Source: a virus (Duplodnaviria; Heunggongvirae; Uroviricota; Caudoviricetes). Taken from it: a stretch of 48,409 nt of DNA. The notes beneath the pieces were generated by a model. It saw nothing but the letters and a program-made list of their open reading frames with translations, was not told where the DNA came from and did not search any database. Location: the IMG/VR virus record IMGVR_UViG_646564533_000016, one strand, 5' to 3'. Positions 1-48,175 of the stretch are shown in pieces; the stretch's first letter is position 1, and each line of letters starts with the position of its first letter. Both the position numbers and the translations under genes were made by a program.

Positions 1-90
1 TTGCCTCCCCCCCGTTGATGGGTAAAATAGCCGCAATTTTTCGTTTTCAACAAGCGCGGCGCGATGCCGCTTACTCAAGAAGAAAGAATT

Positions 91-165
91 ATGACGTTGT
101 CTCCTTATTTGCAAGAGGTGGCGAAGCGCCGCACTTTTGCCATTATTTCTCACCCCAATAATTAA
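91..165 (+). pseudogene. prfC: 5' fragment of host prfC (peptide chain release factor 3) interrupted by prophage insertion
   Basis: ATG at 91 translates [22 protein letters not shown], matching the PrfC N-terminus as I recall it, then diverges (NN-stop) at about 157 where AT-rich phage DNA starts. Confidence 0.6.
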
Positions 166-385
166 GCCCAAATAAAAGCTCTTTTACTCTTTCAAAATCC
201 TTTCAATTAATTGAGTGATAATCATATAACTCATTTAATAACATGATGTTATGTGATTTCTTTGATTGAAAATTCTTTCATGTAACTTTAAATTGATCAG
301 GTTGCTTTCATCAAAAATCTGTACATGTGATTGTACATAATGTACAAAACAGCAGAGGTTTTTTGTTATTTGTACAAGGTGAGTA

Positions 386-1609
386 ATGGCGCTGTCTGAT
401 GCGTGGTTGCGTTCAGTCGTTGGAAAGGAACGTGATAAGGTTTTGGTTAAATCCGATCGTGATGGTCTGTCTGTTAGAGTATCACCGAAAGGTCGCGTAG
501 TGTTCCAATATCGTTATCAGTGGGCGGGGAAAGGTGAGCGTCTTGATATCGGAACTTACCCAGCAACTGGACTAAAAGAGGCCAGAGAAGAAGTTATCCG
601 TCTTCGTGGTGAACTCGAGTCAAACCGCAATCCACGATTGGTCAAGCTGGCAGAAAAACGTAAAGCTACTGAAGCCATGACGGTAGAATCTGTGATCCGT
701 GCTTGGTATGAAGCATATTGTGTAAAAAATAAAAAAGGTTCTGAACAGATACTCCGCTCGTTTGAGCTGCACCTGTTCTCTAAAATCGGGAATATCCCTC
801 ACGATGCAGCTACATTGCATGATTGGTTAGAAGTCCTGGAGCCTCTTAGCACTAAGACTCCAGCAATAGCAGACCGATTGCTAATTAACGCAAAGCAGGC
901 CCATGTCTGGGCGTATAAGAGAAAGCTCATTGAAACTCGCCCGCTGTCGGATATCACGGGTAAAGATATGGATATCCGTAAAGGTCAGAAGAAACGGTTT
1001 CTGACACATGATGAAATTAAAATCCTTTATGCTGCGATCGATGGTTCTCGAATGGTTCCTAAATACCGGGCCTTCATTAAACTATTGCTGCATTTTGGTT
1101 GCCGTAGTTCAGAGCTAATTACTGCCAAGGTGGACGATTTTGATTTCATTAATAAAATATGGACTGTACCACCAGAACGACATAAGACAGGGGATATAAC
1201 AGGCGAACCGCTAAAGCGGCCCATTATTGAACCGGTTGAAGAGCTTATAAAATACGTTATCTCTATGAACAACGGTTCCGATATGCTTTTTACTAAGGAA
1301 GGAAGCAGGGAACCAGTTGGTCGGACATCATTGCAGTCGCTGCCTTACAATTTAATGCAGTACGCATGGCGGCGTTTGGGGTATCAATTTCCTCATTGGT
1401 CTCTTCATGATTTGAGACGAACTGCACGAACAAACTTTTCTGATCTTACTGCGCCTCATATTGCTGAAATAATGCTCGGTCATAAACTGCCAGGTGTATG
1501 GCAAGTTTATGACAAGAGTGATTATCTAGAAGAACAGCGTAAAGCCTACCAGGCATGGTGGGAGAGAGTTGAATCGATTGTTACTTGTACTCGTTCAGGC
1601 TCGAAATGA
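386..1609 (+). CDS. Tyrosine site-specific integrase, P4/IntS-like
   Basis: 407 aa; N-terminal arm-binding-type region (MALSDAWLRS...GLSVRVSPKGRVVFQYRY) and C-terminal catalytic region (HDLRRTART...); RBS AAGGTGAG before ATG; lies next to the host junction. Confidence 0.93.
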   Translation: MALSDAWLRSVVGKERDKVLVKSDRDGLSVRVSPKGRVVFQYRYQWAGKGERLDIGTYPATGLKEAREEVIRLRGELESNRNPRLVKLAEKRKATEAMTVESVIRAWYEAYCVKNKKGSEQILRSFELHLFSKIGNIPHDAATLHDWLEVLEPLSTKTPAIADRLLINAKQAHVWAYKRKLIETRPLSDITGKDMDIRKGQKKRFLTHDEIKILYAAIDGSRMVPKYRAFIKLLLHFGCRSSELITAKVDDFDFINKIWTVPPERHKTGDITGEPLKRPIIEPVEELIKYVISMNNGSDMLFTKEGSREPVGRTSLQSLPYNLMQYAWRRLGYQFPHWSLHDLRRTARTNFSDLTAPHIAEIMLGHKLPGVWQVYDKSDYLEEQRKAYQAWWERVESIVTCTRSGSK

Positions 1610-1791
1610 TATTTTGCGTAGCTAGAACGCAATCAAATCTAGCAGTCCGCTTTGTTCGGAGTTCGGACATTATGAGTTGGCAAGTAAAGTAGCTTGCTAG
1701 GAAGCCGGATTTGCACGGTCGGTATAATAAGATGTAACCCCTTGCCTTCATTTACTCGAATGAACGTGCACATTGGATAGGAGGAAAAGGA

Positions 1792-4700
1792 ATGCAATTC
1801 ATTACCAACGGCCCTGATATTCCTGATGAGCTTTTGCAGGCGCACGAGGAAGGGCGCGTTGTGTTCTTCTGTGGAGCAGGCATTTCCTACCCTGCTGGTT
1901 TACCTGGTTTCAAAGGGTTGGTAGAACTAATTTACCAGAGGAACGGAACAACACTTTCAGAAATTGAGCGTGAGGTTTTCGAGCGTGGGCAATTTGACGG
2001 CACATTAGATTTGCTGGAACGGCGCTTACCAGGGCAGCGTATAGCCGTCCGACGCGCGTTGGAAAAAGCCCTTAAGCCAAAGCTCCGTCGTAGGGGCGCT
2101 ATTGATACTCAGGCGGCGCTGTTACGTTTAGCCCGTAGCCGCGAGGGTGCCCTTCGATTGGTCACTACCAACTTTGACCGTCTCTTTCATGTGGCAGCTA
2201 AACGTACAGGCCAGGCTTTTCAGGCCTATGTAGCGCCGATGCTGCCAATTCCAAAAAACAGCCGCTGGGATGGACTTGTATACCTGCATGGGCTGTTACC
2301 GGAAAAGGCGGATGATACTGCCCTGAATCGTCTGGTTGTTACCAGCGGTGACTTTGGCTTGGCTTATCTCACTGAGCGTTGGGCAGCTCGCTTTGTGAGT
2401 GAGTTATTTCGTAACTATGTGGTCTGCTTCGTTGGCTACAGCATCAACGACCCGGTACTGCGCTACATGATGGATGCGCTTGCAGCAGATCGGAGGCTCG
2501 GTGAAGTCACACCACAAGTATGGGCACTGGGGGAGTGTGAGCCGGGGCAGGAGCACCGGAAAGCCATCGAGTGGGAGGCCAAAGGGGTCACTCCTATCCT
2601 TTACACCGTACCGGCGGGCTCCACTGATCATTCAGTGCTGCATCAAACGTTGCACGCTTGGGCAGATACTTATCGAGATGGTATACAGGGCAAAGAGGCT
2701 ATAGTCGTCAAACATGCTCTGGCCCGCCCGCAGGACAGCACTCGTCAGGACGATTTCGTTGGTCGGATGTTGTGGGCCTTGTCAGATAAATCAGGTTTAC
2801 CAGCAAAACGCTTTGCGGAACTCAATCCTGCTCCGCCGCTGGATTGGTTATTGAAAGCTTTCTCGGACGAACGATTTAAATACAGCGATCTGCCACGCTT
2901 TTGTGTATCTCCGCATGTCGAAATTGACCCGAAACTCCGATTCAGTCTGGTTCAGCGTCCTGCGCCCTATGAGCTGGCCCCGCAGATGTCGCTGGTTTCT
3001 GGATGTGTCAGTGCTAGCAAATGGGATGACGTAATGTCCCATATAGCCCGTTGGCTAGTTCGTTATCTGGGCGACCCTAGGTTGATCATATGGATTGCTG
3101 AACGCGGCGGACAAATACACGACCGTTGGATGTTTCTGATTGAGAGCGAACTAGATCGCTTAGCAGCACTGATGCGGGAGCGTAAGACTTCTGAGTTAGA
3201 TGAAATTCTCTTGCATTCCCCCCTGGCTATTCCTGGTCCACCTATGTCTACTTTATGGCGGCTTCTGCTTAGTGGTCGTGTGAAATCGCCATTGCAGAAC
3301 CTGGATTTGTATCGTTGGCAAAACCGCTTAAAGAATGAAGGCTTGACGACTACATTGCGCTTGGAGTTACGCGAGTTGCTTTCTCCCAAGGTTATGTTGA
3401 GGCGGCCGTTTCGCTATAGTGAAGACGATTCGAGCAGCACTGATGAACCCTTGCGAATCAAGCAATTGGTGGATTGGGAGCTGGTGCTGACTGCTGATTA
3501 CGTACGTTCAACCCTGTTCGACCTTGCTGACGAGTCATGGAAATCGTCCTTGCCATACCTGTTGGAAGATTTTCAGCAGTTGTTGCGTGATGCACTGGAC
3601 TTGTTGCGGGAGTTGGGAGAGTCCGACGATCGTCACGACCGCTCGCATTGGGATTTGCCGTCCATCGCTCCGCACTGGCAGAACCGGGGGTTCCGCGATT
3701 GGGTGAGCCTGATTGAATTACTTCGGGATTCATGGTTAGCCGTTCGAGCCAAAGACAGCGATCAGGCCACGCGCATTGCTCAGAATTGGTTTGAGTTGCC
3801 ATATCCCACCTTCAAACGTCTGGCACTGTTTGCCGCAAGCCAAGACAACTGCATACCACCTGAGCGGTGGGTTAATTGGTTGTTAGAGGACGGTTCATGG
3901 TGGTTGTGGGCCACGGATACTGGGCGAGAGGTATTCAGACTGTTTGTTTTGCAGGGACGACATCTGACAGGAATTGCACAAGAGCGTCTGGAAACTGCTA
4001 TCTTGGCAGGGCCTCCGCGCGAGATGTACGAGGATAATTTGGAAGCAGACAGGTGGCATTATTTGGTGGCTCATTCCGTCTGGTTGTGTCTAGCGAAGCT
4101 CAGGGGAGCGGGCCTTGTTTTGGGAGAGTCTGCGGCTACACGTTTGACGGAAATATCCACAGCATACCCAAAATGGCAACTGGCAACCAACGAGCGTGAT
4201 GAATTCTCTCACTGGATGAGCGGAACCGGTGATCCAGGCTTCGAGGAGAGTATAGATGTCGACATTGCGCCCCGTAAGTGGCAGGAATTAGTGCAATGGC
4301 TCGCAAAGCCTATGCCAGAAAGACTGCCTTTCTATGAGGACACTTGGAGTGATGTTTGCCGTACGCGCTTTTTTCACAGTCTGTATGCGTTACGTAAACT
4401 ATCACAAGATGATGTGTGGCCTGTTGGTCGGTGGCGTGAAGCTCTGCAGACTTGGGCTGAACCAGGGATGATTTTGCGTTCGTGGCGGTACGCCGCACCG
4501 TTGGTGCTTGACATGCCTGACGCAGTACTTCAGGAGATTTCCCTCGCTGTCACTTGGTGGATGGAGGAGGCTTCGAAGACCATCCTCTGCCACGAGGAGA
4601 TTCTACTGGCCCTTTGTCGTCGGGTTCTGATGATAGAAACAAGCCCAGAGTCTAGCACCATTCGAAACGGAATTGAGACCTATGATCCTGTTTCTACGGC

Positions 4701-5619
4701 GATCAATCATCCCATTGGGCATGTCACGCAATCACTGATCACCCTATGGTTCAAACAGAACCCGAATGACAATGATTTGCTTCCTGTTGAATTGAAAACA
4801 CTTTTCACCAAATTGTGTAATGTACAGATAGAGCTATTCCGCCATGGTCGGGTGTTGCTGGGGTCGCGGCTGATCGCATTTTTTCGCGTAGATCGACCTT
4901 GGACCGAACAGTATCTATTGCCCTTGTTTGCTTGGAGTAATCCCGTCGAAGCAAAAGCTGTGTGGGAAGGCTTCCTCTGGTCGCCACGCCTGTATGAACC
5001 GTTGCTGATAGCTTTCAAGTCAGATTTTTTGGAGAGCGCCAATCACTATTCTGATCTTGGCGAGCACCGGCAGCAATTCGCTACTTTCCTGACTTATGCA
5101 GCTCTGGGCCCTACCGAGGGATATACCGTGGAGGAGTTCCGAACGGCAATTAGTGCTCTTCCACAAGAAGGTCTGGAGGTAGCCGCGCAGGCGTTATACC
5201 AGGCACTTGAAGGTGCGGGCGATCAGCGCGAGGAGTATTGGAAAAATCGTGTCCAGCCATTTTGGCAACAGGTTTGGCCAAAGTCCCGCAACTTGGCCAC
5301 CCCACGCATATCCGAATCGTTGACTCGTATGGTGATTGCTGCCCGAGGTGAATTTCCGGCGGCTTTGGCAGTGGTGCAGGACTGGCTGCAACCGCTCGAA
5401 CACCTTAGCTACGACGTTCGCCTTTTGCTAAAATCAGATATTTGCAGCCGATATCCTGCGGACGCTCTATCCCTGCTGAATGCCGTGATTGCCGAACAAC
5501 ACTGGGGGCCTCGAGAGTTGGGGCAATGCTTGCTTCAAATTGTTCAAGCTGCTCCACAACTGGAGCAAGATGTTCGTTATCAGCGATTAAATGAATATTC
5601 TCGAAGGCGCAGCGTGTGA
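1792..5619 (+). CDS. Large SIR2-domain protein (SIR2_2-type N-terminal NADase domain plus ~950-aa helical W/L-rich C-terminal region); candidate defence-associated sirtuin (DSR-like) effector
   Basis: 1275 aa; strong RBS AGGAGG 8 nt before ATG; N-terminal motifs VVFFCGAGISYPAGLP, VTTNFDRL, VYLHG, VGYSINDP typical of the SIR2_2 family; no Walker A motif found; sits between int and xis. Confidence 0.85.
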   Translation: MQFITNGPDIPDELLQAHEEGRVVFFCGAGISYPAGLPGFKGLVELIYQRNGTTLSEIEREVFERGQFDGTLDLLERRLPGQRIAVRRALEKALKPKLRRRGAIDTQAALLRLARSREGALRLVTTNFDRLFHVAAKRTGQAFQAYVAPMLPIPKNSRWDGLVYLHGLLPEKADDTALNRLVVTSGDFGLAYLTERWAARFVSELFRNYVVCFVGYSINDPVLRYMMDALAADRRLGEVTPQVWALGECEPGQEHRKAIEWEAKGVTPILYTVPAGSTDHSVLHQTLHAWADTYRDGIQGKEAIVVKHALARPQDSTRQDDFVGRMLWALSDKSGLPAKRFAELNPAPPLDWLLKAFSDERFKYSDLPRFCVSPHVEIDPKLRFSLVQRPAPYELAPQMSLVSGCVSASKWDDVMSHIARWLVRYLGDPRLIIWIAERGGQIHDRWMFLIESELDRLAALMRERKTSELDEILLHSPLAIPGPPMSTLWRLLLSGRVKSPLQNLDLYRWQNRLKNEGLTTTLRLELRELLSPKVMLRRPFRYSEDDSSSTDEPLRIKQLVDWELVLTADYVRSTLFDLADESWKSSLPYLLEDFQQLLRDALDLLRELGESDDRHDRSHWDLPSIAPHWQNRGFRDWVSLIELLRDSWLAVRAKDSDQATRIAQNWFELPYPTFKRLALFAASQDNCIPPERWVNWLLEDGSWWLWATDTGREVFRLFVLQGRHLTGIAQERLETAILAGPPREMYEDNLEADRWHYLVAHSVWLCLAKLRGAGLVLGESAATRLTEISTAYPKWQLATNERDEFSHWMSGTGDPGFEESIDVDIAPRKWQELVQWLAKPMPERLPFYEDTWSDVCRTRFFHSLYALRKLSQDDVWPVGRWREALQTWAEPGMILRSWRYAAPLVLDMPDAVLQEISLAVTWWMEEASKTILCHEEILLALCRRVLMIETSPESSTIRNGIETYDPVSTAINHPIGHVTQSLITLWFKQNPNDNDLLPVELKTLFTKLCNVQIELFRHGRVLLGSRLIAFFRVDRPWTEQYLLPLFAWSNPVEAKAVWEGFLWSPRLYEPLLIAFKSDFLESANHYSDLGEHRQQFATFLTYAALGPTEGYTVEEFRTAISALPQEGLEVAAQALYQALEGAGDQREEYWKNRVQPFWQQVWPKSRNLATPRISESLTRMVIAARGEFPAALAVVQDWLQPLEHLSYDVRLLLKSDICSRYPADALSLLNAVIAEQHWGPRELGQCLLQIVQAAPQLEQDVRYQRLNEYSRRRSV

Positions 5620-5786
5620 AAGTGACAGGCGTTGGACAGTGCGAACTGTGGAGCCTAACAAGGTAAAGACACTCTAACTGATAATGCTGCGCCGCTCGTG
5701 CAATGCAATACAGTTTTTATCTAGCGGTGAATTATGGTGTTAAAAGTTAGCCCCTGACACAGGGTGGGTAGTTGGCTCTGTGTCAT

Positions 5787-5824
5787 TGATGGGTATTAGT
5801 TCTGATATGAGCTAATACCCATCA
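5787..5824. repeat. Perfect 13-bp inverted repeat (TGATGGGTATTAG / CTAATACCCATCA) with 12-nt loop, between the convergent SIR2 gene and xis
   Basis: Read directly; a second shorter inverted repeat (TGACACAG / CTGTGTCA) lies just upstream at about 5752..5784; neither is followed by a U-run. Confidence 0.6.
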
Positions 5825-6016
5825 CTCAATAACTCCAGCAAACCTGTATATCTTGCGTGATGCCCATTTATTTGGGCAGGATTTAATATCAGGATCTGGA
5901 AAGTCAGGCCTGTATTTCTGGCCAGTTCTCCTGTTTACGCTGTTCCAGCGAAGAACGGTCGATACTGAAACGCCACAGAAGTCGGCGACTTGTTTAGTTG
6001 TCATTAAGTTGTTCAT
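5822..6016 (-). CDS. AlpA/Xis-family excisionase or DNA-binding regulator (HTH)
   Basis: 64 aa; TTKQVADFCGVSVSTVLRW...FPDPD pattern typical of AlpA/Vis/Xis partners of P4-type integrases; strong SD AGGAGGTGA; ATG overlaps stop of upstream gene (TAATG). Confidence 0.7.
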   Translation of the reverse strand: MNNLMTTKQVADFCGVSVSTVLRWNSVNRRTGQKYRPDFPDPDIKSCPNKWASRKIYRFAGVIE

Positions 6017-6636
6017 TACTTCACCTCCTGCGGTGGCTCCGGTAGCGGCATCCAGTGGGTTACTTTCGATGCCGGTTCTTCCCCATCGTCAGTAACTGCC
6101 CACCATTTGTTTCTCGACCAATCGTAATACCCTTCGAAGATATCGTACTCAGTCCAGCCGTAAGACTTACCCCAACACCAAACATATTGTTTATCGTTCG
6201 GCATTCGCTCACTACAGCTTATCCAACCATCCGGAGTTACCGGAGAGTTGCCAGACAGCTTGTTCAACTTGTAAGTCTGGCTTACAGGTTTGACACCGTG
6301 AAGCATGGTGGCGCGGCAGGCGTTCCAGCCTTCATCAAAACCGACTATGCCATTATTTAAAGTCGGACGAGCATCTGGCACCACCGGCACTGGCTTGGCT
6401 ATATATAGCGGCTGAACATACCAGCCCTTTGATAACCAACTGTCAGCAATGTTTTTACTCCTGGTTATTGCTGGAATACCTAAGCCATTGTCTGAATGTA
6501 GCCATGCCACCGGCTCCTCTTCCAGCGATGCCAGAGCAATTTCATAAGCACGGCGCTCAATATCGTCTCGAACCTCCAGGCTGCTGATACGCTCTTTGAT
6601 TTCTTTAATCAGTTCTTTATCGGTAAATGTGGTCAT
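6016..6636 (-). CDS. Phage early protein, DUF551-like C-terminus (THWMPLPEPP)
   Basis: 206 aa ORF in early-left operon; C-terminal W-rich motif shared with the next gene. Confidence 0.75.
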   Translation of the reverse strand: MTTFTDKELIKEIKERISSLEVRDDIERRAYEIALASLEEEPVAWLHSDNGLGIPAITRSKNIADSWLSKGWYVQPLYIAKPVPVVPDARPTLNNGIVGFDEGWNACRATMLHGVKPVSQTYKLNKLSGNSPVTPDGWISCSERMPNDKQYVWCWGKSYGWTEYDIFEGYYDWSRNKWWAVTDDGEEPASKVTHWMPLPEPPQEVK

Positions 6637-6998
6637 TATGCTCCAGCCTCCGGTGCTTTTGGCATTACTGCCCAGTGAGTGATATTGACGCTTTCAATGT
6701 CCCCGACCTGAAATGTCCACTGCCATTCTCCGGTTTCTTTTTGTCCCCAGGTGTACCAGAGAGAACGCCAGCCAATCAGCCAGCCTTCTCCGTTAGCATC
6801 AAATAACAGAACACTTTCATTTGCTGGTGGTAGTTCAGCTGACACTGGTATTATTTTGTTTTCCAGTGCCGCACATTTAGCTTCAAGCGCATCGAATTTA
6901 CGTACTAGGTACTCAGCATTTGTTTCGTTCACTTTCAGATCTCGCGGTACACATTTCCCGCGAAGAAACCCTTCCATTTCGAAAACATTCATGCGCAT
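6636..6998 (-). CDS. Phage early protein, DUF551-like (YfdS-like by size and position)
   Basis: 120 aa; C-terminal ITHWAVMPKAPE motif; start/stop overlap with neighbours. Confidence 0.7.
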   Translation of the reverse strand: MRMNVFEMEGFLRGKCVPRDLKVNETNAEYLVRKFDALEAKCAALENKIIPVSAELPPANESVLLFDANGEGWLIGWRSLWYTWGQKETGEWQWTFQVGDIESVNITHWAVMPKAPEAGA

Positions 6999-7525
6999 TT
7001 GCGTAACTCCGATAACTCGTTAAAACGTTCCATAAACATCCCGTAGGCATGGCCTGGAGCCAGTGGAATCACTTTGAACATCTCTGTTGCCGGGATACCT
7101 TCCAATACAGGCCAGAAAGAGCCATCATCAAGTCCGAGATCGCGGCGTTCGGTTGCCAGCATGATGAGATCGGCATATTTCACTGGCGTGCTCATAACAG
7201 GAGGTAACCCGTATTTCTCACGGATTACGGCGTCTATTTTTTCTTCCATCCGTTTATAGTCAGGAAGAAGGCGTTTCAGTGGTGCGGGGATGTCCTGGCA
7301 ATATGCTTCTGTTGCATCATGCATTAACGCTTCAAAAGCAAATTCCTGCGGTACCAGCTGGCTGCAAAGCACCGCATGTTGGGCGACGCTGTAGAAGTGT
7401 GAAAGATGTCCTGCAAAGCGACAGATATTTGAAAGGGAAACCGCGATATCGTTAATCACGATGTCGTCTTTATTTATCCTGTCATAATAAAAATGCTTCC
7501 CGGAAAAAGTTTTAATAAATGACAT
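6989..7525 (-). CDS. yfdR: HD-domain phosphohydrolase (YfdR-like 5'-deoxynucleotidase)
   Basis: H...HD motif (QHAVL...MHDATEAY); ATG at 7525 has SD GGAG and gives 178 aa; the ORF track's longer 7552 start is a GTG without RBS. Confidence 0.75.
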   Translation of the reverse strand: MSFIKTFSGKHFYYDRINKDDIVINDIAVSLSNICRFAGHLSHFYSVAQHAVLCSQLVPQEFAFEALMHDATEAYCQDIPAPLKRLLPDYKRMEEKIDAVIREKYGLPPVMSTPVKYADLIMLATERRDLGLDDGSFWPVLEGIPATEMFKVIPLAPGHAYGMFMERFNELSELRKCA

Positions 7526-7652
7526 TTTGTTCTCCACGTATATGCGCTGCACCGCGCTGAATTCTGGTAAAAGGAAGCCATCACCATCCGGCGATTATTG
7601 AGTAAATTATGTTTCCATAAATGCCCCCGCAGGGGCATTTGCAGTAATGAAA

Positions 7653-8477
7653 TCAGGCGGTGAAAGTACCAATAAAGGTTTCTACTTTGCTGTCTTTAAA
7701 TTTCTCAACAAGCAGATCACGAAATTCGTTAGCCATTTCTTCCTGCACCGCTTCCAGCTGAATAATGCGCAGAACCAGTACAGGACGATCGCCAGTGATA
7801 ATGCTGAGGCGTAATTTAAACGGACGTTCTTTAAGGCCTTCAAACGGAACGCATTTAAATTCAAATGCCACTGGCATAATGTCTTTAGTCTTCGCTTCGA
7901 CAGACTCCATCAGGGAGCGTTTGCCGCTGAAGTCATTATCTTCAAAATCAGCGGTCTGGTTTGCTTCAATCGTGATTTTACGGACCGCCGCAGCCGCTTT
8001 TGTTGCCTGAATGGTGTCACCATTAGCATCAAAGCCCACAAGGTAGTCGGCCCAGTCTTCAATCCATTCTGCCAGTGATTTCTGGGAGTTACGCTCGCCA
8101 TTAACAGACAACAGAGCAGAGAACGGTGCTGTCTTTTTCAGTTTGAGAGTGGCGGTGTTATCTGCGTGACCTGGTTCATCAATAGTACCCAGGTTAAGCA
8201 CACTGACGGCACGCATATTATCAGCATCGATAAAGCAGCGGGTGCCTTCATCTGCAAGATCTTTAGAATAACGGGTAAAGTCATCGATGCTGGCAGTGGA
8301 AAGCGCACCACGGAAACGGAAGCGATTTAAATTAAATTTTTCCAGATCATGAATGCGGAAATTCTCAGGCAATGCCACAGCATCGGCACCAATCTTACTG
8401 ATAATTTCATTAACACCCTGAGCAGAAATAAGGGCATGGATTTGATTAATTGCGGTTGCGTCTAAGTTCTGAGACAT
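7653..8477 (-). CDS. yfdQ: YfdQ-like phage protein (DUF2303 family)
   Basis: 274 aa, same size and position as CPS-53 YfdQ; family assigned from memory. Confidence 0.7.
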
Positions 8478-8542
8478 AATAAGTCCTCACTATATAAAGA
8501 TATTCAGTGATGAGATAAATAATCAGTTAATTAAGAACGATA

Positions 8543-18239: not shown

Positions 18240-18520
18240 AATTCATAGTTTGTCTGTATACGATAACGAAGAAGGCTGATGCCTGAGTGGAGATACAGAC
18301 AGAGTGGTGAATATTGGATCTCTTTAATAAAGAGTAAGGAGGTCCAATACATGAAACAATGGCCAGCATATTTGGCAATAACTTAATCAGGAAAAGTATG
18401 CTAACCATTGTGGTGAAGTGCAGGTTTGCTGCATGAATAGTTTTACAGCAGAAGCTAACTGCTGGCATAGCAAAACAAAGTGCGTAAGTGGATGACTCCC
18501 ACAAAAAGTACCACAATATT

Positions 18521-18546
18521 AAACCCGCTCAGGCGGGTTTTTTATT
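18521..18546 (+). terminator. Intrinsic terminator downstream of the cspB-like gene
   Basis: ACCCGC-TCAG-GCGGGT hairpin plus T-run. Confidence 0.75.
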
Positions 18547-18602
18547 ATCTGCTTTAAATATGTTATTAAAATATAAAAAATACTTGTTACGAATAAAATC
18601 AA

Positions 18603-18773
18603 TCAAGCTACAGCTTTAAGATTTGTCTGGAATACTTTGTTGCAATGAGGGCAGATCAAAAGGGCACCTTTTTGTACTCTTGAAAAACTGTGTTCTGACT
18701 CTTGGGTGCAGTTTGGGCAGGAACATTTAACGAGATAATTACGGCGTGATTTTGAGTCTTTACGTTCTGACAT
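18603..18773 (-). CDS. Small zinc-ribbon protein (two CxxC pairs)
   Basis: ATG at 18773 (MSERKDSKSRRNYLVKCSCPNCTQ...CPHCNK) with SD AGGAAA; 56 aa. Confidence 0.55.
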   Translation of the reverse strand: MSERKDSKSRRNYLVKCSCPNCTQESEHSFSRVQKGALLICPHCNKVFQTNLKAVA

Positions 18774-18991
18774 AGGCTTTTCCTGTATAAATGGCCGTAT
18801 ACAGTACACTAAATATGAAAACATATCTCGTATTATTATTTAATATATGATTTTCTTTTAAAATAATTACCCACATTTTTAATGTGTCTGTTTTTTAGCG
18901 CCGTTGAGAACAACGTTTGCTATAAAAACTACCCCATAGACTCCGATCTTTTCAAACATATTGCACCATCTGTGTACATCGGGGTGAGGAT

Positions 18992-19207
18992 ATGAAATCA
19001 ATGGATAAGTTAACAACAGGTATCGCCTATGGCACATCGGCTGGTAATGCTGGTTTCTGGGCATTGCAGTTACTCGATAAAGTAACTCCGTCACAGTGGG
19101 CTGCAATCGGTGTGCTGGGTAGTCTGGTATTTGGCTTGCTGACGTACCTGACAAACCTTTATTTCAAGATTAAAGAAGACAAGCGTAAGGTTGCACGGGG
19201 AGAGTAA
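18992..19207 (+). CDS. Class II holin (phage-21 S21-type pinholin) with dual-start motif
   Basis: 71 aa; MKSMDK... with Met1/Met4 dual start; two TMDs ([17 protein letters not shown] and [18 protein letters not shown]). Confidence 0.9.
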
Positions 19208-19211
19208 TTCA

Positions 19212-19556
19212 ATGACACAAAACTATGAACTGATTGTGAAAGGGATCCGCAATTTTGAGAATAAAGTTGCGGTAACTGTAGCATTAAGGGACAAAAAACG
19301 CTTTGACGGTGAAATTTTTGACCTGGACATCTCGCTGGACCGTGTTGAAGGTGCCGCGCTGGAGTTTTATGAGGCAGCAGCCAGAAGGAGCATCAGACAG
19401 GTCTTCCTGGAAGTTGCAGCCGGGTTATGTGAAGGGGATGAGCAGTCGCCGGAAAAGCGCCCCGTAATTTTAGAGGCGCAGAATGTGTGGATAACCTACA
19501 AAGGAAAGCTACCAGGAAGAATTACTGATTCTCTGAAGACTCCACCGAAATGGTAA
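19212..19556 (+). CDS. Hypothetical protein in the lysis cassette
   Basis: ATG at 19212 (MTQNYELIVKG...) preceded by GGGGAGAG; 114 aa. Confidence 0.6.
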   Translation: MTQNYELIVKGIRNFENKVAVTVALRDKKRFDGEIFDLDISLDRVEGAALEFYEAAARRSIRQVFLEVAAGLCEGDEQSPEKRPVILEAQNVWITYKGKLPGRITDSLKTPPKW

Positions 19557-19794
19557 TTTTACCAGCATATTTTTCTTCCAGTAATGCCGCCAGCCACTTG
19601 AAAGAATTTTGTTGTTCCTGGGACCATTTGGGGTTGCGTGATTCAAGCAGGAGCGATGCCAGTGTTGGTTGCATTTGTTCTCTGGGAATTGATAAGGCCA
19701 AATATGAAAATGCAACAGTGAGGGCATTTACATCATCCCGAAGCTTTGAAATGCAGTCGAGCAACTCCTGTAGAGAAATGGTGTTATTGTCCAT
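19522..19794 (-). CDS. Hypothetical protein, opposite strand to the lysis genes
   Basis: 90-aa ORF with protein-like composition filling the gap between the holin-adjacent gene and the endolysin. Confidence 0.35.
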   Translation of the reverse strand: MDNNTISLQELLDCISKLRDDVNALTVAFSYLALSIPREQMQPTLASLLLESRNPKWSQEQQNSFKWLAALLEEKYAGKITISVESSENQ

Positions 19795-19899
19795 AAATAA
19801 TCCTCTTGATTGTCTTTACCTTTTCCCCGCCTGATTCAACAGGCCGGGACAGATAAACATATCCAGGGTTCAGAAACCGATAAATCCTGATAAATATCC

Positions 19900-20921
<1,022 letters not shown>

Positions 20922-21286
20922 ATGTAGATTAACATTAAATCGGATTATTTTTAGCGCTGAATGTGAAATTTAAATAAAAAGGACTCTTCCATGAGTCAAA
21001 ATCCTTGAAATCTTAAGGGTAAGATAAAAGGTCATTAGACAGAATGACACGTTTTATTAATAAATAAAGCTATTGTTTCATTCGTGTGTTTTTCTTTACA
21101 AAAGTAATCCTTGCTATGGTTGGTTAATCATGCGTTAATGGTGTTCTGGTTTGTTACAAAATTATCTGAAGCAGTCATTGTTATAATTTTATTATTTGTA
21201 CCTCTTGAGATTTCCTTGTTGGTTTTTCTCTCTGATATTTTTTTCGGACCATTCTGCCCAAGGGCTCACTTCTTCAAAAGGTAATA

Positions 21287-21502
21287 ATGATGTCTAACAA
21301 AATGACTGGTTTAGTGAAATGGTTTAACCCTGAAAAAGGTTTTGGTTTCATCACGCCGAAAGATGGTAGCAAAGATGTGTTTGTCCATTTCTCAGCTATT
21401 CAGAGCAACGATTTCAAAACGTTAACTGAGAATCAGCAAGTCGAATTTGGTATTGAGAACGGACCTAAAGGCCCCGCGGCTGTTCATGTAGTGGCACTTT
21501 GA
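21287..21502 (+). CDS. cspI: Cold-shock protein CspI-like
   Basis: [49 protein letters not shown]. Confidence 0.9.
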
Positions 21503-21710
21503 GGTAGAAAATATTACAAACCATATTCACTTTAGATGCCCGTGTTGCCATGGTTCTCAGTATAGAACATCATCTTTTGATGTTTCTGACAGGAATCCTT
21601 TCGGGGCAAAATGTATCTTTTGTAAATCAATGATGATTACATTTGATAATATTTCACAATACTTAAATGTTAGCCGTCTGTCGTTAGATTTAAGAAAGTG
21701 AAAATGAAGG

Positions 21711-21731
21711 CTCCTTCGGGAGCTTTTTTGC
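21711..21731 (+). terminator. Intrinsic terminator
   Basis: GCTCC-TTCG-GGAGC hairpin followed by TTTTTT. Confidence 0.6.
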
Positions 21732-21773
21732 TTAGTGTCTAGTCGATGGATACTCACATATTACGGTAACATC

Positions 21774-22004
21774 ATGAAAAAAATAATAGTTTTTTTTAAC
21801 TCTGAACCAGCAATGGTAGTGCCAGTGATGACCGGAGTTAACACCATCATGCGTGAATATCCAAATGGCGAAACAACACATCTCACTGTAATGGCTGCAG
21901 GGTTTCCATCTCTGACCGGAGATCATAAAGTCATTTATGTAGCAGCGGATCGACATGTAACTTCAGAAGAAATTCTGGAAGCAGCAATGAGACTCTTGAA
22001 TTGA
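21774..22004 (+). CDS. Hypothetical moron protein
   Basis: ATG at 21774 (MKKIIVFFNSEPAMVVPV...); no clear RBS. Confidence 0.45.
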   Translation: MKKIIVFFNSEPAMVVPVMTGVNTIMREYPNGETTHLTVMAAGFPSLTGDHKVIYVAADRHVTSEEILEAAMRLLN

Positions 22005-22176
22005 TTTCATTCTAATGCCTTGATAATAAAGGATAATCATCTTTATCTGTTTGTGCGAAATTTAGACTGTCGTATGTTGATTATTGCGATGTTTCATCTT
22101 ATCTTTTATACGTTTGCTCCATATAATTGACACTACTGTGTACCAGGAAAGTCATAACAGACTAAAAGAGGAAATG

Positions 22177-22350
22177 ATGAACATTGAAGAGTTAAAAACA
22201 AAAACAGAAGCAGATATTTCTGAATATATAACAAAAAAAATTATTGAGCTTAAGAAAAAGACCGGGAAAGAAGTTACCAGTATCCAGTTTACTGCACGGG
22301 AAAAAATGACTGGTCTTGAAAGCTATGATATCAAGATTGATTTAATCTAG
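22177..22350 (+). CDS. gnsB: GnsA/GnsB-family protein
   Basis: MNIEELKTKTEADISEYITKKIIELKKKTGKEVTSIQFTAREKMTGLESYDIKIDLI; SD AAAGAGGA. Confidence 0.8.
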   Translation: MNIEELKTKTEADISEYITKKIIELKKKTGKEVTSIQFTAREKMTGLESYDIKIDLI

Positions 22351-22645
22351 TGTGTTTATAGTATTAGCATCAATTTCTTATCAGATGCTATTCAACAATA
22401 CAATTTACCCATAAACCTCGTTTTTACGGGGTTTTGTTATATTTAAACATTACCGAATAGATATAAATCTCGATAGTCGGTGGTATTGGTTGTGTGACAA
22501 TACCTAGTCTTTCCGGTATGCCTGGAGAGAATACAAACGACAGATTATGTAAGGGAAACGCGCTGAAACTTTCACACTTTCATGCTGAGTGATTTGACGT
22601 TATATTTTTAGCCGCAAGTGAAGAGCAAACGCATGGAGCGACAAA

Positions 22646-22852
22646 ATGCATAAAGATCAATACACTGATGACTCATCCTTGGATCAGGTCCGTGTAAAAA
22701 CTATGCTCACTAGCACCATTTCTATGAGTTATCCGGATGTTGTAATTGCATGTATAGAACATCAAGTGTCTCTGGAAGCATTCAGGGCAATTGAGGCAGC
22801 GTTGGTGAAGCACGATAAGAATTCGAAGGATTATTCCCTGGTGGTTGACTGA
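22646..22852 (+). CDS. Hypothetical moron protein
   Basis: 68 aa; SD GGAG 9 nt upstream; AT-rich island. Confidence 0.5.
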
Positions 22853-23105
22853 TCGCCATAACTGCTAACCATTCAAACTATTTCACCTGTGACAGAGTCA
22901 ATATCGCATTCTGTCACTGTCAGGCTAATACAGAACTACAATTCAACTACTGCAATGCCTCGTAATTAGGTGAAGTTACAATATCGTCCTGTTCGGATGC
23001 CAACTGCATTTCTGAAGATAAGGCGTTTATGACTCACATATTTGTCCCACACGTTCGCCAGTCCTGTGCGGGGTGGGAGGGGAGGTAAAGAAACCGGGAT
23101 ATTCA

Positions 23106-23297
23106 TTATTCATCACTTTTGATTGATGTAGATGCTCTCTTTTCTGACGTTAGTCTCCGACGGCAGGCTTCAATGACCCAGGCTGAGAAATTCCCGGACC
23201 CTTTTTGATCAAGAGCGATGTTAATTTGTTCAATCATTTGGTTAGGAAAGCGGATGTTGCGGGTTGTTGTTCTGCGGGTTCTGTTCTTCGTTGACAT
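23106..23297 (-). CDS. ylcI: YlcI-like protein (DUF3950)
   Basis: ATG at 23297: MSTKNRTRRTTTRNIRFPNQMIEQINIALDQKGSGNFSAWVIEACRRRL. Confidence 0.75.
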   Translation of the reverse strand: MSTKNRTRRTTTRNIRFPNQMIEQINIALDQKGSGNFSAWVIEACRRRLTSEKRASTSIKSDE

Positions 23298-23496
23298 GAG
23301 GTTGTCCCGTATTCTGTGTCGCTGATTTGTATTGTCTGAAGTTGTTTTTACGTTAAGTTGATGCGGATCAATTAATACGATACCTGCGTCATAATTGATT
23401 ATTTGACGTGGTTTGATGGCGTACACGCACGTTGTGATATGTAGATGATAATTATTATCATTTTGTGGGTCCTTTCCGGCGATCCGACAGGTTACG

Positions 23497-23508
23497 GGGC
23501 GGCGACCT
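23497..23508. other. cos site (cosN cohesive-end sequence GGGCGGCGACCT), cosB region following
   Basis: Lambda-type 12-nt cohesive-end sequence with flanking CGTTACG...TCGCGG and downstream TATTTATGAAAATTTTTC, about 180 bp upstream of nu1. Confidence 0.85.
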
Positions 23509-46534: not shown

Positions 46535-47109
46535 TGGCATTCAGAATGAGTGAACAAGCACGGACCATAAAAATTTATAATCTGCTGGCCGGAACTAATG
46601 AATTTATTGGTGAAGGTGACGCATATATTCCGCCTCATACAGGTCTGCCAGCAAACAGTACCGATATTGCACCGCCAGATATTCCGGCTGGCTTCGTGGC
46701 TGTTTTCAACAGTGATGAGTCATCGTGGCATCTCGTTGAAGATCATCGGGGTAAAACGGTTTATGACGTGGCTTCCGGCGATGCGTTATTTATTTCTGAA
46801 CTCGGTCCGTTACCGGAAAATGTTACCTGGTTATCGCCGGAAGGGGAGTTTCAGAAGTGGAACGGCACAGCCTGGGTGAAGGATACGGAAGCAGAAAAAC
46901 TGTTCCGGATCCGGGAGGCGGAAGAAACAAAAAACAACCTGATGCAGGTAGCCAGTGAGCATATTGCGCCGCTTCAGGATGCTGCAGATCTGGAAATTGC
47001 AACGGAGGAAGAAATCTCGTTGCTGGAAGCATGGAAAAAGTATCGGGTATTGCTGAACCGTGTTGATACGTCAACTGCACAGGATATTGAATGGCCAGCA
47101 CTGCCGTAG
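46534..47109 (+). CDS. tfa: Tail fibre assembly protein Tfa
   Basis: 191 aa; TAATG overlap with stf; lambda tfa position. Confidence 0.9.
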
Positions 47110-47206
47110 GGTAAAACATATAAATTCTATAATTAGATGTATCTTTCCATTTACGGCAAGGAAGGGGGCTTGGAAGACGTAAAGCATCTCACACCGAGAT
47201 TATTTT

Positions 47207-47797
47207 TTATATGTCAGGTGTCTGAAGTTTTGCTTTGGCTCTTAAAATGGTTTGCCGCGAGGTTTTGAATTCCCGGGCAATGGCACTTATACTTACACCT
47301 GACTTAATTCGTTCGAATACCACCTGTTTCTGTTCTTCATTTAACACAGGTGGTCGACCAAAACGTTTCCCTGCGCCGCGGGCTCTTACTATCCCGGAAT
47401 GAGTGCGTTCAAGTAAAAGGTCTCGTTCAAATTCAGCGACTGCTGAAATTACTTGCATCATCATTTTTCCTGTTGGACTGGTCAGGTCAATGCCCCCCAA
47501 TGCTAAGCAATGCACTCTGATACCTGTTTCGGTCAGTTGTTCCACTGTTTTCCTGATATCCATTGCATTACAACCAAGGCGATCCAGTTTTGTCACAATC
47601 AATTGATCACCACATTTCAGGCGAGCAAGCAACCGGTTAAAACCAGGACGCTCACTGGTTGCTGCTGAGCCGCTAATGTGTTCTTCGATTATTTGCTGAG
47701 GTTTGATTTTAAAACCTGCACTTTCGATTTCCCGGCGTTGATTTTCGGTGGTCTGATCCAGCGTTGATATCCGACAGTAAGCAAAAATTCGAGACAT
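47207..47797 (-). CDS. pin: Serine recombinase / DNA invertase, Pin (Hin/Gin) family
   Basis: [20 protein letters not shown] (catalytic Ser region) and C-terminal HTH ([19 protein letters not shown]). Confidence 0.92.
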
Positions 47798-48175
47798 AGT
47801 GAGACTCTATACGAAATTGGTGTACATATCATAATGCATATCCAAAAATTATTTCGCTTATTATTGTACATATTTGTATGTATACGTTCGAAAATAAACG
47901 AATTCGGATGCAGTCCCGTAATTTTGGTGTAACCAAAAATCGATTTTTTGAAAAATGGCTTTAACTCGGTTTGTTTTTCGAACTCCGGGCGGACTCGAGG
48001 AAGACGAATAATAGTGTTGTATGTTATTTCAACCAGATTTTAAGTTGTTTGGTCGTGGAAAAGTGGAGCAAAATGTTGTTAAAGTGGAAAAATGGTAAAA
48101 AAAGTATGTTGTTGCGGAATAACGTAGTTGTTGATATTTTTTTAATGCATTGAAAAATTATTTTTCAGGGGGGTA

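What the first reader, a model, noticed from the sequence alone, without database searches (positions are those of the whole stretch)
1610..6016. Integrase and excisionase are split by the inserted cargo gene and face each other
The P4-type int (+) and the AlpA/Xis-like gene (-) are convergent and separated by about 4.2 kb that holds only the SIR2 gene with its own promoter-like sequence (TATAAT at 1723..1728) and RBS. This is the arrangement expected for a variable cargo slot at the prophage left end, so related prophages may carry other defence genes at this position.
Basis: inference. Interest (0 to 1): 0.5.

Follow-up and report, generated by a model that had tools for sequence, protein, structure and literature searches.

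The report
Defence-gene swap slot between int and xis
In this E. coli lambda-like prophage the integrase and excisionase genes point at each other, and the gap between them is a slot where related prophages carry at least 22 different, mostly anti-phage, gene cassettes (here the NAD-depleting Dsr1), which makes it a practical place to look for new immune genes.

Summary
That interval holds one credible gene, a full-length Dsr1 (1792-5619).

The inference is also supported. Among 85 viral contigs whose integrase is at least 97% identical, the int-to-xis interval holds 21 unrelated cargo types, and a 22nd came from a xis-anchored scan. Cargos lie on either strand. Seven types are full-length matches to known or candidate defence systems: Dsr1, Borvo, dGTPase, dCTP deaminase, AbiU/AIPR, a Septu-like pair and PDC-S59. 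About eleven types have no family match.

Relatives in Trabulsiella and Pantoea, integrated at the same prfC site, have int and xis overlapping tail-to-tail with nothing between them. So the cargo is an insertion.

The module occurs in 698 of 5,426 complete E. coli genomes, and 71 of these carry dsr1. Identical Xis proteins accompany seven different cargos, so Xis tracks the integrase and not the cargo. Breakpoints vary and also fall inside dsr1, which favours exchange by homologous recombination.

The claim that dsr1 has its own promoter is only weakly supported. An ~85-nt structured element that starts at the xis stop codon is unexplained.

Verdict: a new example of a known kind, the phage-borne defence hotspot.

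The parts
1..155 (+). Truncated 5' end of host prfC. The attL identity segment is about 114-155.
   Evidence: Bases 1-155 are 100% identical to prfC in prophage-free E. coli. Free phage genomes (cdtI, Ayreon, 2H10) match from base 114. Intact prfC is restored at attR ~49.6 kb away in the identical record.
156..385 (+). P' arm and int regulatory region, with CTTTCA direct repeats (188-297) and four TGTACA motifs (320-377).
   Evidence: Repeats are. A promoter-like TTGAAA-17-TAAATT lies at 266-294. The TGTACA block is conserved in Trabulsiella and Pantoea relatives. A role as arm sites or operator is inferred.
386..1609 (+). Tyrosine integrase with a P4-type arm-binding N-terminal domain.
   Evidence: PF00589 3.9e-17, PF13356 9.2e-16, PF22022 1.4e-07. 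phrog_1 integrase 3.8e-75.
1610..1677 (+). Left linker element after the int stop. It is conserved across many cargo types and is not significantly structured in this window's version.
   Evidence: The left-flank HMM hits 1611-1677 at 6.4e-16 and nowhere else in the window. Homology to other cargo types ends between 1591 and 1675. Fold z -0.16 / -1.74. A related sequence occurs in 1,139 of 5,426 E. coli genomes.
1711..1791 (+). dsr1 upstream region that travels with the gene: -10-like TATAAT at 1723-1728, a conserved leader at ~1745-1791, and RBS AGGAGG at 1777-1782.
   Evidence: Homology to the Pantoea and Shewanella plasmid dsr1 loci begins at ~1711-1725. Alignment A1 shows a near-invariant leader and a partly kept -10. 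There are only 6 TATAAT in the window against 15 expected. No -35 was found.
1792..5619 (+). dsr1, a defence-associated sirtuin: an N-terminal SIR2 NADase domain plus a large C-terminal sensor region. It is the cargo in this copy of the slot.
   Evidence: PADLOC Dsr1 2730 bits over the full length. NCBIfam Dsr1 equivalog 2056 bits, above the 1400 cutoff. SIR2_2 at residues 123-269. Motifs GAGIS28, TTNFD125 and YLHG164 are present. RefSeq names it dsr1.
5620..5735 (+). dsr1 3' flank that belongs to the cargo.
   Evidence: It aligns with the sequence downstream of dsr1 on the Pantoea and Shewanella plasmids.
5736..5821 (-). Structured ~85-nt element starting at the xis stop codon. It has two strong hairpins and marks the right boundary of the variable segment.
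   Evidence: The right-flank HMM hits 5821-5736 at 2.2e-13. Fold -31.3 kcal/mol z -5.5 (xis sense) and -45.5 kcal/mol z -7.2 (+ strand). Homology to 12 of 20 other cargo types starts at 5772. A related element is in 2,212 of 5,426 E. coli genomes and in other contexts. No Rfam family matches.
5822..6016 (-). xis: a 64-aa winged-helix protein, the probable excisionase (recombination directionality factor). It is the last gene of the leftward early operon.
   Evidence: phrog_1553 excisionase 7.7e-36. It is annotated as excisionase in phage cdtI. AF2 model pLDDT 88 with a MerR/Xis-type wHTH fold. It always co-occurs with this int, including across genera. The identical protein occurs with 7 cargo types.
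6016..8477 (-). Leftward early operon upstream of xis: DUF551 (6016-6636), yfdS-like (6636-6998), yfdR (6989-7552), yfdQ/DUF2303 (7653-8477).
   Evidence: ORFs abut or overlap, with start and stop codons sharing bases. Pfam hits are and RefSeq names.

Best explanation
The interval is a cargo slot at the junction where two converging transcription units end.

int is read inward from its own control region in the P' arm next to attL. xis is the last gene of the repressor-controlled leftward early operon. In cargo-free relatives their 3' ends overlap. DNA inserted exactly there interrupts no promoter, operon or att site, and it is packaged with the phage.

In the E. coli lineage the slot is always filled, with one of many unrelated cassettes on either strand. 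Many of these are anti-phage systems that benefit the lysogen.

Cassettes are replaced by homologous recombination between co-infecting or resident relatives. The nearly identical int and xis genes and short conserved linker sequences serve as the homology arms.

Here the cassette is Dsr1. On sensing an infecting phage its SIR2 domain depletes NAD+ and aborts the infection.

Shown: the anatomy, the diversity, the empty site, the co-inheritance of xis with int, and the mosaic breakpoints. Inferred: the promoters, the excisionase activity, the recombination route, and expression of dsr1 in the lysogen from its own upstream region and/or int read-through.
For: Anatomy.

Diversity: 85 of 87 loci with int at least 97% identical have xis convergent downstream, with intervals of 1,076-4,212 bp. 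These fall into 21 sequence clusters, on both strands, with GC 0.31-0.43 except dsr1. A 22nd type came from the xis-anchored scan.

Defence content: Dsr1, BovA, dGTPase, dCTP deaminase, AbiU, PDC-M01A/B and PDC-S59 are full-length matches. HNH, DUF4365 and TPR cargos match at domain level.

RefSeq names in an even sample of genomes agree.

Empty site: Trabulsiella and Pantoea relatives have the same prfC attL, int 84/83% and xis 87/83% identical, with overlapping stop codons.

Frequency: 698 of 5,426 complete E. coli genomes carry the module and 71 carry dsr1, all 71 in this context.

The slot lies in functional phage genomes (cdtI, Ayreon, Stx2c phages) and in a complete 49.6-kb prophage here.

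Recombination: boundaries vary between 1591-1675 and 5769-5826. L053 is ~100% identical to the window except from ~1436 to ~2786, so that breakpoint lies inside dsr1.

Dsr1 function: NAD+ depletion and capsid sensing by EcDsr1 (PMC13464706, PMC12803255).
Against: No transcription data exist. The only promoter signal for dsr1 is a -10 hexamer without a -35, and it is only partly conserved in orthologues.

Xis activity is untested. Its Pfam hit is sub-threshold and the fold match does not separate excisionases from other MerR-type wHTH proteins.

About half of the cargo types have no defence annotation, so 'defence slot' is an extrapolation for those.

The loci come from databases biased towards E. 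coli isolates, and near-identical prophages inflate the counts.

The recurrent right boundary, and the weak inverted-repeat resemblance of the flanks, leave room for a more specific exchange mechanism.
Confidence: 0.82

Rival explanations
1. The flanking hairpin elements are ends of a mobile cassette system, integron-, MITE- or PeSL-like. Cargo would then be captured by a site-specific or structure-specific reaction, possibly involving Int, and not by general homologous recombination.
For: The right homology boundary is at the same base (5772) in 12 of 20 cargo types. The left-flank profile hits the right flank only in inverted orientation, at a fixed distance of 41-55 bp from the xis stop, in 5 cargo types. 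The elements are absent from empty sites. The right element is dispersed to other loci and is strongly structured. Similar GTCCGC..GCGGAC hairpins flank dsr1 on a Pantoea plasmid.
Against: Within single loci the left/right similarity is not significant in most types, and it is absent in the window itself. Boundaries scatter over ~80 bp on the left and ~55 bp on the right. One breakpoint lies inside dsr1. No target duplication was seen, and no recombinase other than Int is present. The 5772 recurrence is partly an artefact, because the window's own version of the element is divergent.
Confidence: 0.1
2. The 64-aa ORF is not an excisionase. It would instead be a regulator or inhibitor of the neighbouring defence gene, like Ith-1, the mis-annotated 'xis' of S. 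aureus phage 80alpha.
For: The precedent in PMC11087260 has the same local layout of int, defence gene and a small antisense 'xis'. The excisionase label here is annotation only. Pfam is sub-threshold, and the best fold matches are RacA and BldC ahead of RdfS and Pukovnik Xis.
Against: The identical Xis protein accompanies 7 unrelated cargos and the next variant accompanies 5. xis is kept, tail-to-tail with int, in cargo-free relatives from other genera. Every xis-anchored locus with enough DNA has this same integrase. That is the opposite of the 80alpha/phi11 pattern.
Confidence: 0.06
3. The interval is simply a decaying, insertion-prone prophage end with no selected function. It would be a junk-collecting region, and the defence hits would be incidental.
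For: IS elements do accumulate here (IS3, IS1, IS1414). Some cargos are truncated or frameshifted (c1 in L051 against L131; truncated dsr1 in H241). Half of the cargos are unannotated.
Against: Cargos are overwhelmingly single intact ORFs or compact operons. Seven types are full-length defence systems. The slot is present in plaque-forming or inducible phages and in a complete prophage. No empty slot was seen among 85+ E. coli-type loci, although the empty state exists in other genera.
Confidence: 0.04

Closest known systems
P4 satellite hotspot between int and psu-delta-sid, and the P2 hotspots (Rousset 2022; PMC13586616)
   Same: A fixed position next to a P4-type integrase in an otherwise conserved element. 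It is filled with many unrelated defence systems that turn over among close relatives.
   Different: Here the element is a full lambda-like siphovirus integrated in prfC. The slot is bounded by int and a convergent xis, and cargo-free relatives show the two genes overlapping. No psu/delta/sid or P2 core genes are present.
S. aureus 80alpha/phi11 lysogeny module: int, tha and ith ('xis') (PMC11087260)
   Same: A defence gene lies beside the integrase with a small antisense ORF annotated as xis. The defence must be reconciled with the prophage's own induction.
   Different: There the small ORF tracks the defence gene and pairs with unrelated integrases. Here it tracks the integrase across 22 cargos and across genera. 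No inhibitor role is indicated.
BstA and other single-locus prophage defences; mycobacteriophage defence genes near the integrase and repressor
   Same: Prophage-encoded, lysogen-expressed defence carried as accessory DNA within the lysogeny region (Dedrick 2017 from my own knowledge).
   Different: Those are single systems at a locus, and BstA lies beside the repressor. This is one position with many alternative systems.
KplE1/CPS-53 recombination module, IntS and TorI (from my own knowledge)
   Same: The integrase is read inward from attL with its control region in the att arm. The RDF is the last gene of the yfdP-yfdT-type operon, and the yfdP-S genes are ~97% identical.
   Different: It has a different integrase and att site (argW). 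In KplE1 the RDF lies at the opposite prophage end next to attR, so the genes are not convergent and not adjacent, and no int/xis cargo slot is described.
Lambda int-xis operon with sib retroregulation (from my own knowledge)
   Same: The same two functions lie next to the att site in a lambdoid phage. A structured RNA element lies downstream of the recombination genes.
   Different: In lambda, xis overlaps int, both are co-directional and co-transcribed from pL, and no space exists for cargo. Here they converge. Whether the 85-nt element acts like sib is untested.
E. coli chromosomal defence-island hotspots (Hochhauser 2023, PMC10121019)
   Same: Defence systems ride on mobile elements that integrate at preferred chromosomal sites.
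   Different: That study maps where elements integrate in the chromosome. It does not mention prfC or yjjG in the text searched, and it does not describe positions inside the prophage.

Membership tests
Phage-borne defence hotspot (in the sense used for P2/P4) | Fixed position between conserved genes of closely related elements | tested here: met
   The slot always lies between the int stop and the xis stop: 85 of 87 int-anchored loci and every xis-anchored locus with enough DNA.
Phage-borne defence hotspot (in the sense used for P2/P4) | Many unrelated gene contents among relatives | tested here: met
   21 clusters with no mutual megablast similarity plus L145. Further names appear in E. coli genomes.
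Phage-borne defence hotspot (in the sense used for P2/P4) | Enrichment for known defence systems | tested here: met
   7 of 22 types are full-length PADLOC matches and 4 more match at domain level. No formal background rate was computed.
Phage-borne defence hotspot (in the sense used for P2/P4) | Cargos protect against phages | not testable with these tools
   Only literature for EcDsr1 is available. The unknown cargos are untested.
Dsr1 (defence-associated sirtuin 1) | Full-length match to the curated family model above its cutoff | tested here: met
   NCBIfam NF041818 equivalog scores 2056 bits against 1400, covering residues 1-1271. PADLOC PDLC02183 scores 2730 bits.
Dsr1 (defence-associated sirtuin 1) | N-terminal SIR2 domain with Rossmann and catalytic Asn/His motifs | tested here: met
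   PF13289 8.9e-23. GAGIS28, TTNFD125 and YLHG164 are present. Assigning these motifs as catalytic is from my own knowledge of SIR2 enzymes.
Dsr1 (defence-associated sirtuin 1) | Phage-triggered NAD+ depletion | not testable with these tools
   Reported for EcDsr1 in PMC13464706.
P4-type tyrosine integrase | Catalytic tyrosine-recombinase domain plus Arm-DNA-bind_3 N-terminal domain | tested here: met
   PF00589, PF13356 and PF22022 are all above their gathering scores.
P4-type tyrosine integrase | Adjacent to its att site | tested here: met
   The attL core at ~114-155 lies 230 bp upstream of the int ATG.
P4-type tyrosine integrase | Equivalence to a named integrase family (PRK09692 / CP4-57 type) | tested here: not met
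   66 bits against a cutoff of 434.
Excisionase / recombination directionality factor (Xis, TorI, AlpA type) | Curated family model at threshold | tested here: inconclusive
   phrog_1553 'excisionase' matches over the full length at 7.7e-36. Pfam HTH_17 (22.6 against 27), TIGR01764 (17.2 against 28.8) and Xis_Gifsy_1 (20 against 60) are all below their cutoffs, and there is no Phage_AlpA hit.
Excisionase / recombination directionality factor (Xis, TorI, AlpA type) | Small winged-helix fold | tested here: met
   AF2 pLDDT 88.4. Foldseek finds MerR-type wHTH proteins, including RdfS (TM 0.57-0.65) and Pukovnik Xis, but all at E > 0.02 and ranked behind RacA and BldC. The fold is compatible but not diagnostic.
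Excisionase / recombination directionality factor (Xis, TorI, AlpA type) | Co-inherited with its cognate integrase | tested here: met
Excisionase / recombination directionality factor (Xis, TorI, AlpA type) | Stimulates excision | not testable with these tools
   No experiment was found for this protein.
Integron-type cassette system (considered) | IntI-type integrase, attI, and cassettes each ending in an attC site with precise boundaries | tested here: not met
   The integrase is a phage type with an arm-binding domain. Boundaries scatter and one breakpoint lies inside the cargo. The flank inverted repeat is weak or absent in most types.
Lambda-type int-xis operon (considered) | xis upstream of int, overlapping it, on the same strand | tested here: not met
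   The genes are on opposite strands and convergent.
   K-12-type genomes match only from window 6512 onward. This element sits in prfC.

The most novel reading that the evidence does not exclude
The conserved structured sequences at the slot edges may be portable boundary modules. This applies above all to the ~85-nt two-hairpin element that begins at the xis stop codon and recurs beside nanQ and in an unrelated prophage. Such modules would insulate int and xis from cargo transcription and would also act as shared landing pads that shuttle defence cassettes between different loci. That would be a lambdoid counterpart of the promoter/stem-loop cassettes that shuffle genes in T4-type phages. 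Separately, several of the ~11 unannotated cargo types would be new anti-phage systems.
Probability: 0.2. Interest if true: 0.7.

Novelty: new member of a known kind. Interest (0 to 1): 0.5.

Why it matters
This prophage family is in about 13% of complete E. coli genomes, including Stx- and Cdt-converting phages. Its int/xis slot therefore contributes a measurable share of strain-to-strain differences in phage resistance, which matters for phage therapy and typing.

The slot is narrow and precisely bounded, and about a third of its known contents are validated or candidate defence systems. The ~11 unannotated cassettes are therefore a short, testable list of candidate new immune genes.

The cargo-free relatives give a clean before-and-after picture of how a lysogeny module acquires accessory DNA. 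The layout also lets one test how a prophage keeps an abortive-infection gene from firing during its own induction.

Tried and rejected
- Rfam scans of the window and of three loci found no family for either flank element.
- Per-locus local alignment of the left flank against the inverted right flank was not significant in most types. Only a profile search gave weak hits in a consistent position.
- RNAalifold on 41 right-flank variants gave a near-zero consensus energy, with only part of H2 recovered. I therefore do not claim covariation support. Per-sequence folding shows strong structure on both strands without deciding which strand matters.
- The left flank and the dsr1 leader of the window are not significantly structured.
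- A PDB sequence search with Xis found nothing useful.
- The genome-contig scan returned only five loci, though two of them were decisive.
- Literature searches for a prfC or int/xis defence slot found nothing specific. Brenes & Laub 2025 could not be opened, so prior description there cannot be excluded.
- The ST131 prophage copy of the flank element has no xis-like ORF beside it, so I rejected the idea that the element is tied to xis genes.
- E. coli hits that lacked a joined xis piece turned out to be IS insertions or diverged xis, not larger systems.

Full report
**What is in the sequence.**
The window begins inside the host gene prfC. Bases 1-155 are identical to the 5' end of prfC in thousands of E. 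coli genomes. Free phage genomes such as cdtI, Ayreon and 2H10 match from base 114 onward. The attL identity segment is therefore about 114-155.

The annotated record identical to the window is E. coli PAR, NZ_CP012379. It shows a complete ~49.6-kb lambda-like siphovirus prophage, with intact prfC restored at attR just beyond the window's end.

- int occupies 386-1609 on the + strand. It has a tyrosine-recombinase domain, a central domain and the P4-type arm-binding domain.
- A single 1,275-aa ORF at 1792-5619 (+) fills the next 4.2 kb. It has an N-terminal SIR2_2 domain and is a full-length Dsr1. PADLOC gives 2730 bits over 1-1275, and NCBIfam gives 2056 bits against a cutoff of 1400. The GAGIS, TTNFD and YLHG motifs are intact.
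- A 64-aa ORF at 5822-6016 (-) ends the leftward operon yfdQ-yfdR-yfdS-DUF551-xis. The start and stop codons of these genes abut or overlap.
- int and this ORF converge. Their stop codons are 4,212 bp apart.

**Is the small ORF an excisionase?**
It matches PHROG 1553 'excisionase' end to end, and phage cdtI annotates it as excisionase. Every curated Pfam and NCBIfam excisionase or HTH model is below its cutoff, and there is no AlpA hit. RefSeq leaves it unannotated in the identical record.

An AlphaFold model built on 11 homologues is confident, with pLDDT 88. It has the MerR-type winged-helix fold. This fold is shared with the excisionases RdfS and Pukovnik Xis, but also with RacA, BldC and gpNu1, and all matches are at E > 0.02.

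The strongest evidence is genetic.
- Every xis-anchored locus with enough DNA has this same integrase.
- The pair is kept in other genera.
- The identical Xis protein is found with seven unrelated cargos, and the next variant with five.

This matters because in S. aureus phage 80alpha a similarly placed 'xis' proved to be an inhibitor of the neighbouring defence gene. There, identical 'xis' genes pair with unrelated integrases (PMC11087260). The pattern here is the reverse. I take Xis to be the cognate directionality factor at about 0.8, untested.

**Is the interval a variable cargo slot?**
Yes. Eighty viral contigs and seven annotated records carry an integrase at least 97% identical to the window's. 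In 85 of these 87 loci the xis ORF lies convergent downstream, at 1,076-4,212 bp.

The intervals fall into 21 clusters with no mutual similarity. Ten lie on the + strand and eleven on the - strand. GC is 0.31-0.43 for all except dsr1, which is 0.51. A xis-anchored scan added a two-gene type and some IS-disrupted variants.

PADLOC gives full-length matches for seven types:
- Dsr1
- BovA (Borvo), the 710-aa gene of phages cdtI and Ayreon
- dGTPase
- dCTP deaminase
- AbiU/AIPR
- a Septu-like PDC-M01A/B pair
- PDC-S59

Domain-level hits cover four more: an 868-aa dsRBD+HNH protein, a DUF4365 protein, a TPR protein and a weak HEPN match. About eleven types have no match in PADLOC, Pfam or NCBIfam.

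In complete E. coli genomes the module is present in 698 of 5,426. Of these, 71 carry dsr1, always in this context. An even sample of 60 records shows the same mix under RefSeq names, plus DUF6602 and a restriction endonuclease.

**Is the cargo an insertion?**
Trabulsiella guamensis and Pantoea stewartii carry relatives integrated at the same place in prfC, with the same TGTACA-repeat region upstream of int. Their int is 84% and 83% identical, and their xis 87% and 83%. In both, the int and xis stop codons overlap tail-to-tail, with nothing between them.

This is the empty state of the slot. No empty slot was found among the E. coli-type loci.

**How the slot probably works.**
The junction of two converging 3' ends is the one place in the integration module where DNA can be added without cutting a promoter, an operon or the att site. 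Anything placed there lies inside the att boundaries and is packaged. The slot is filled in plaque-forming or inducible phages and in Stx2c-converting phages.

Cassettes on either strand imply that they bring their own expression signals. For dsr1, homology to stand-alone dsr1 genes on Pantoea and Shewanella plasmids (77-80% identical) begins ~70-80 bp upstream of the ATG and ends shortly after the stop. The gene therefore travels with its upstream region.

- The leader at ~1745-1791 is almost invariant.
- The -10-like TATAAT at 1723-1728 is only partly kept: TTTAGT in Pantoea and TAATAA in Shewanella.
- No -35 is recognisable.
- A perfect TATAAT is rare in this window, 6 against 15 expected, so its placement is suggestive. 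My rough estimate from that shuffle rate is about a 3% chance for this 182-nt spacer.
- No convincing terminator separates int from dsr1, so read-through from int is an equally good source of basal expression.

Both routes are inferences.

**How cassettes are exchanged.**
Homology between cargo variants ends at scattered positions, at window 1591-1675 on the left and 5769-5826 on the right.

One dsr1-bearing relative, L053, is ~100% identical to the window in most of int and from ~2786 onward. It is only 72-88% identical across the int 3' end, the left flank and the first ~330 codons of dsr1. That breakpoint therefore lies inside the cargo.

This is the signature of general homologous recombination between related phages, not of a precise cassette reaction. 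As a by-product it shows two Dsr1 alleles that share a sensor region and differ in the SIR2 domain.

**The flank elements.**
Both edges of the variable segment carry short sequences that are conserved across many cargo types and absent from the empty sites.

The right one is ~85 nt and begins at the xis stop codon. It forms two strong hairpins. In the window it folds at -31 kcal/mol (z -5.5) in the xis sense, and at -45.5 kcal/mol (z -7.2) on the other strand. Across 41 variants the mean z is -3 to -4.

It lacks a U-tract and matches no Rfam family. It is not specific to this slot.
- Related copies occur in 2,212 of 5,426 E. coli genomes.
- One copy abuts the nanQ stop codon in E. coli B.
- Another lies between convergent genes in an unrelated ST131 prophage, with no xis-like ORF nearby.

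A profile of the left flank hits the right flank only in inverted orientation and at a fixed offset, in five cargo types at E 3e-4 to 0.04. It does not do so in the window, and single-locus comparisons are mostly not significant. Similar GTCCGC..GCGGAC hairpins flank dsr1 on the Pantoea plasmid and also follow the next gene there.

I read these as linker sequences acquired with early cargo. They now serve as extra homology and perhaps as transcriptional insulators. I could not establish their function, and a more specific role in cassette movement remains possible at about 0.1.

**What Dsr1 does.**
From the literature, E. coli Dsr1 confers defence against a few phages and causes NAD+ depletion that a phage NAD+-salvage operon can reverse (PMC13464706). 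A 2026 preprint reports that its TPR-like sensor, shared with Avs7, recognises phage major capsid proteins (PMC12803255).

The window's protein is a full-length family member with intact SIR2 motifs. NADase-mediated abortive infection is therefore the expected activity.

How the prophage avoids triggering it on its own induction is unknown. Leftward early transcription running past xis would be antisense to dsr1, which is a testable possibility.

**Comparison with known systems and novelty.**
The closest known case is the defence hotspot of P4-like satellites, which also lies immediately next to a P4-type integrase, and the P2 hotspots (PMC13586616). Defence genes in prophage lysogeny modules are known from BstA, from Tha/Ith in S. 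aureus, and from mycobacteriophages. Chromosomal integration hotspots for defence-carrying elements in E. coli have been mapped, without mention of prfC or of positions inside prophages (PMC10121019).

I found no description of this int/xis slot in the searchable literature. One likely source could not be opened.

The finding is therefore a new, well-delimited member of a known kind. It is not a new principle. Its value is practical and moderate: it is common in E. coli, it is sharply bounded, it has a documented empty state, and it holds a short list of uncharacterised cassettes worth testing.

Noticed in passing
window 188-377: Between the attL core and the int start codon lie CTTTCA direct repeats (188-297) and four TGTACA motifs in inverted pairs (320-377). 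The TGTACA block is conserved in the Trabulsiella and Pantoea relatives. They are probably arm-type Int sites or an int operator.
   Followed up: partly
window 5736-5821; L175 4985-5074; L176 4995-5083: A ~85-nt two-hairpin element starts at the xis stop codon. It also abuts the nanQ stop codon in E. coli B and sits in an unrelated ST131 prophage. Related copies are in 2,212 of 5,426 E. coli genomes. It has no Rfam family and no U-tract, and its function is unknown.
   Followed up: partly
window 1436-2786 compared with L053, L060, L072: Two dsr1 alleles differ by 12-17% across the SIR2 domain (about residues 1-332) and the upstream flank. In L053 the rest of the gene is ~100% identical to the window, with the recombination breakpoint inside the gene; in L060 and L072 it is 92-98% identical.
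   Followed up: partly
window 1745-1791: The dsr1 leader is almost invariant between the E. coli, Pantoea and Shewanella copies, whose coding regions are only 77-80% identical. This hints at a regulatory element. It does not fold significantly (z -0.97).
   Followed up: partly
window 5822-6016: RefSeq/PGAP does not annotate the 64-aa xis in the identical record. Elsewhere it is called 'DNA-binding protein', 'helix-turn-helix domain-containing protein' or a pseudogene, so automated surveys will miss the int/xis pairing.
   Followed up: yes
L105, L137, L180; hit H241: IS elements land in the slot: an IS3-family element in the int 3' end, IS1 beside the dCTP deaminase, and IS1414 beside the CHAT gene. 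In strain OkiPb01713, dsr1 is truncated by a deletion reaching yfdQ.
   Followed up: partly
L171 151-4497: A Gammaproteobacteria MAG has a 52%-identical integrase with a prfC N-terminus-like sequence about 3 kb downstream. It looks like a small integrase-only island at the same target gene.
   Followed up: no
L173 2877-2914, 7017-7051, 9405-9434: On Pantoea plasmid pASB05p3, GTCCGC..GCGGAC hairpins lie on both sides of dsr1 and after the next gene. They behave like a generic intergenic palindrome, and they resemble part of the phage-slot flank elements.
   Followed up: partly
window ~18500-23500 and 44000-48409 (from the L178 annotation): The prophage carries other accessory clusters: cold-shock genes cspF, cspB and cspI with gnsB around the lysis genes, a Lom-family outer-membrane protein, and a Pin-like recombinase next to the tail-fibre genes. 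A DinI-like gene next to attR lies just beyond the window's end.
   Followed up: no
L176 788-985: The unrelated ST131 prophage that holds a copy of the flank element also has strong Rfam matches to isrK and to the C4 antisense RNA with its a1/b1 targets.
   Followed up: no
hit H41 (LC727881) and H42-H53: A Stx2c-converting phage record is 99.1% identical to window 1-8500, including dsr1. Twelve other Stx2c phages share int and xis but cover only 52% of the query, so they lack dsr1; what fills their slot was not examined. Shiga-toxin phages take part in the same cargo exchange.
   Followed up: no
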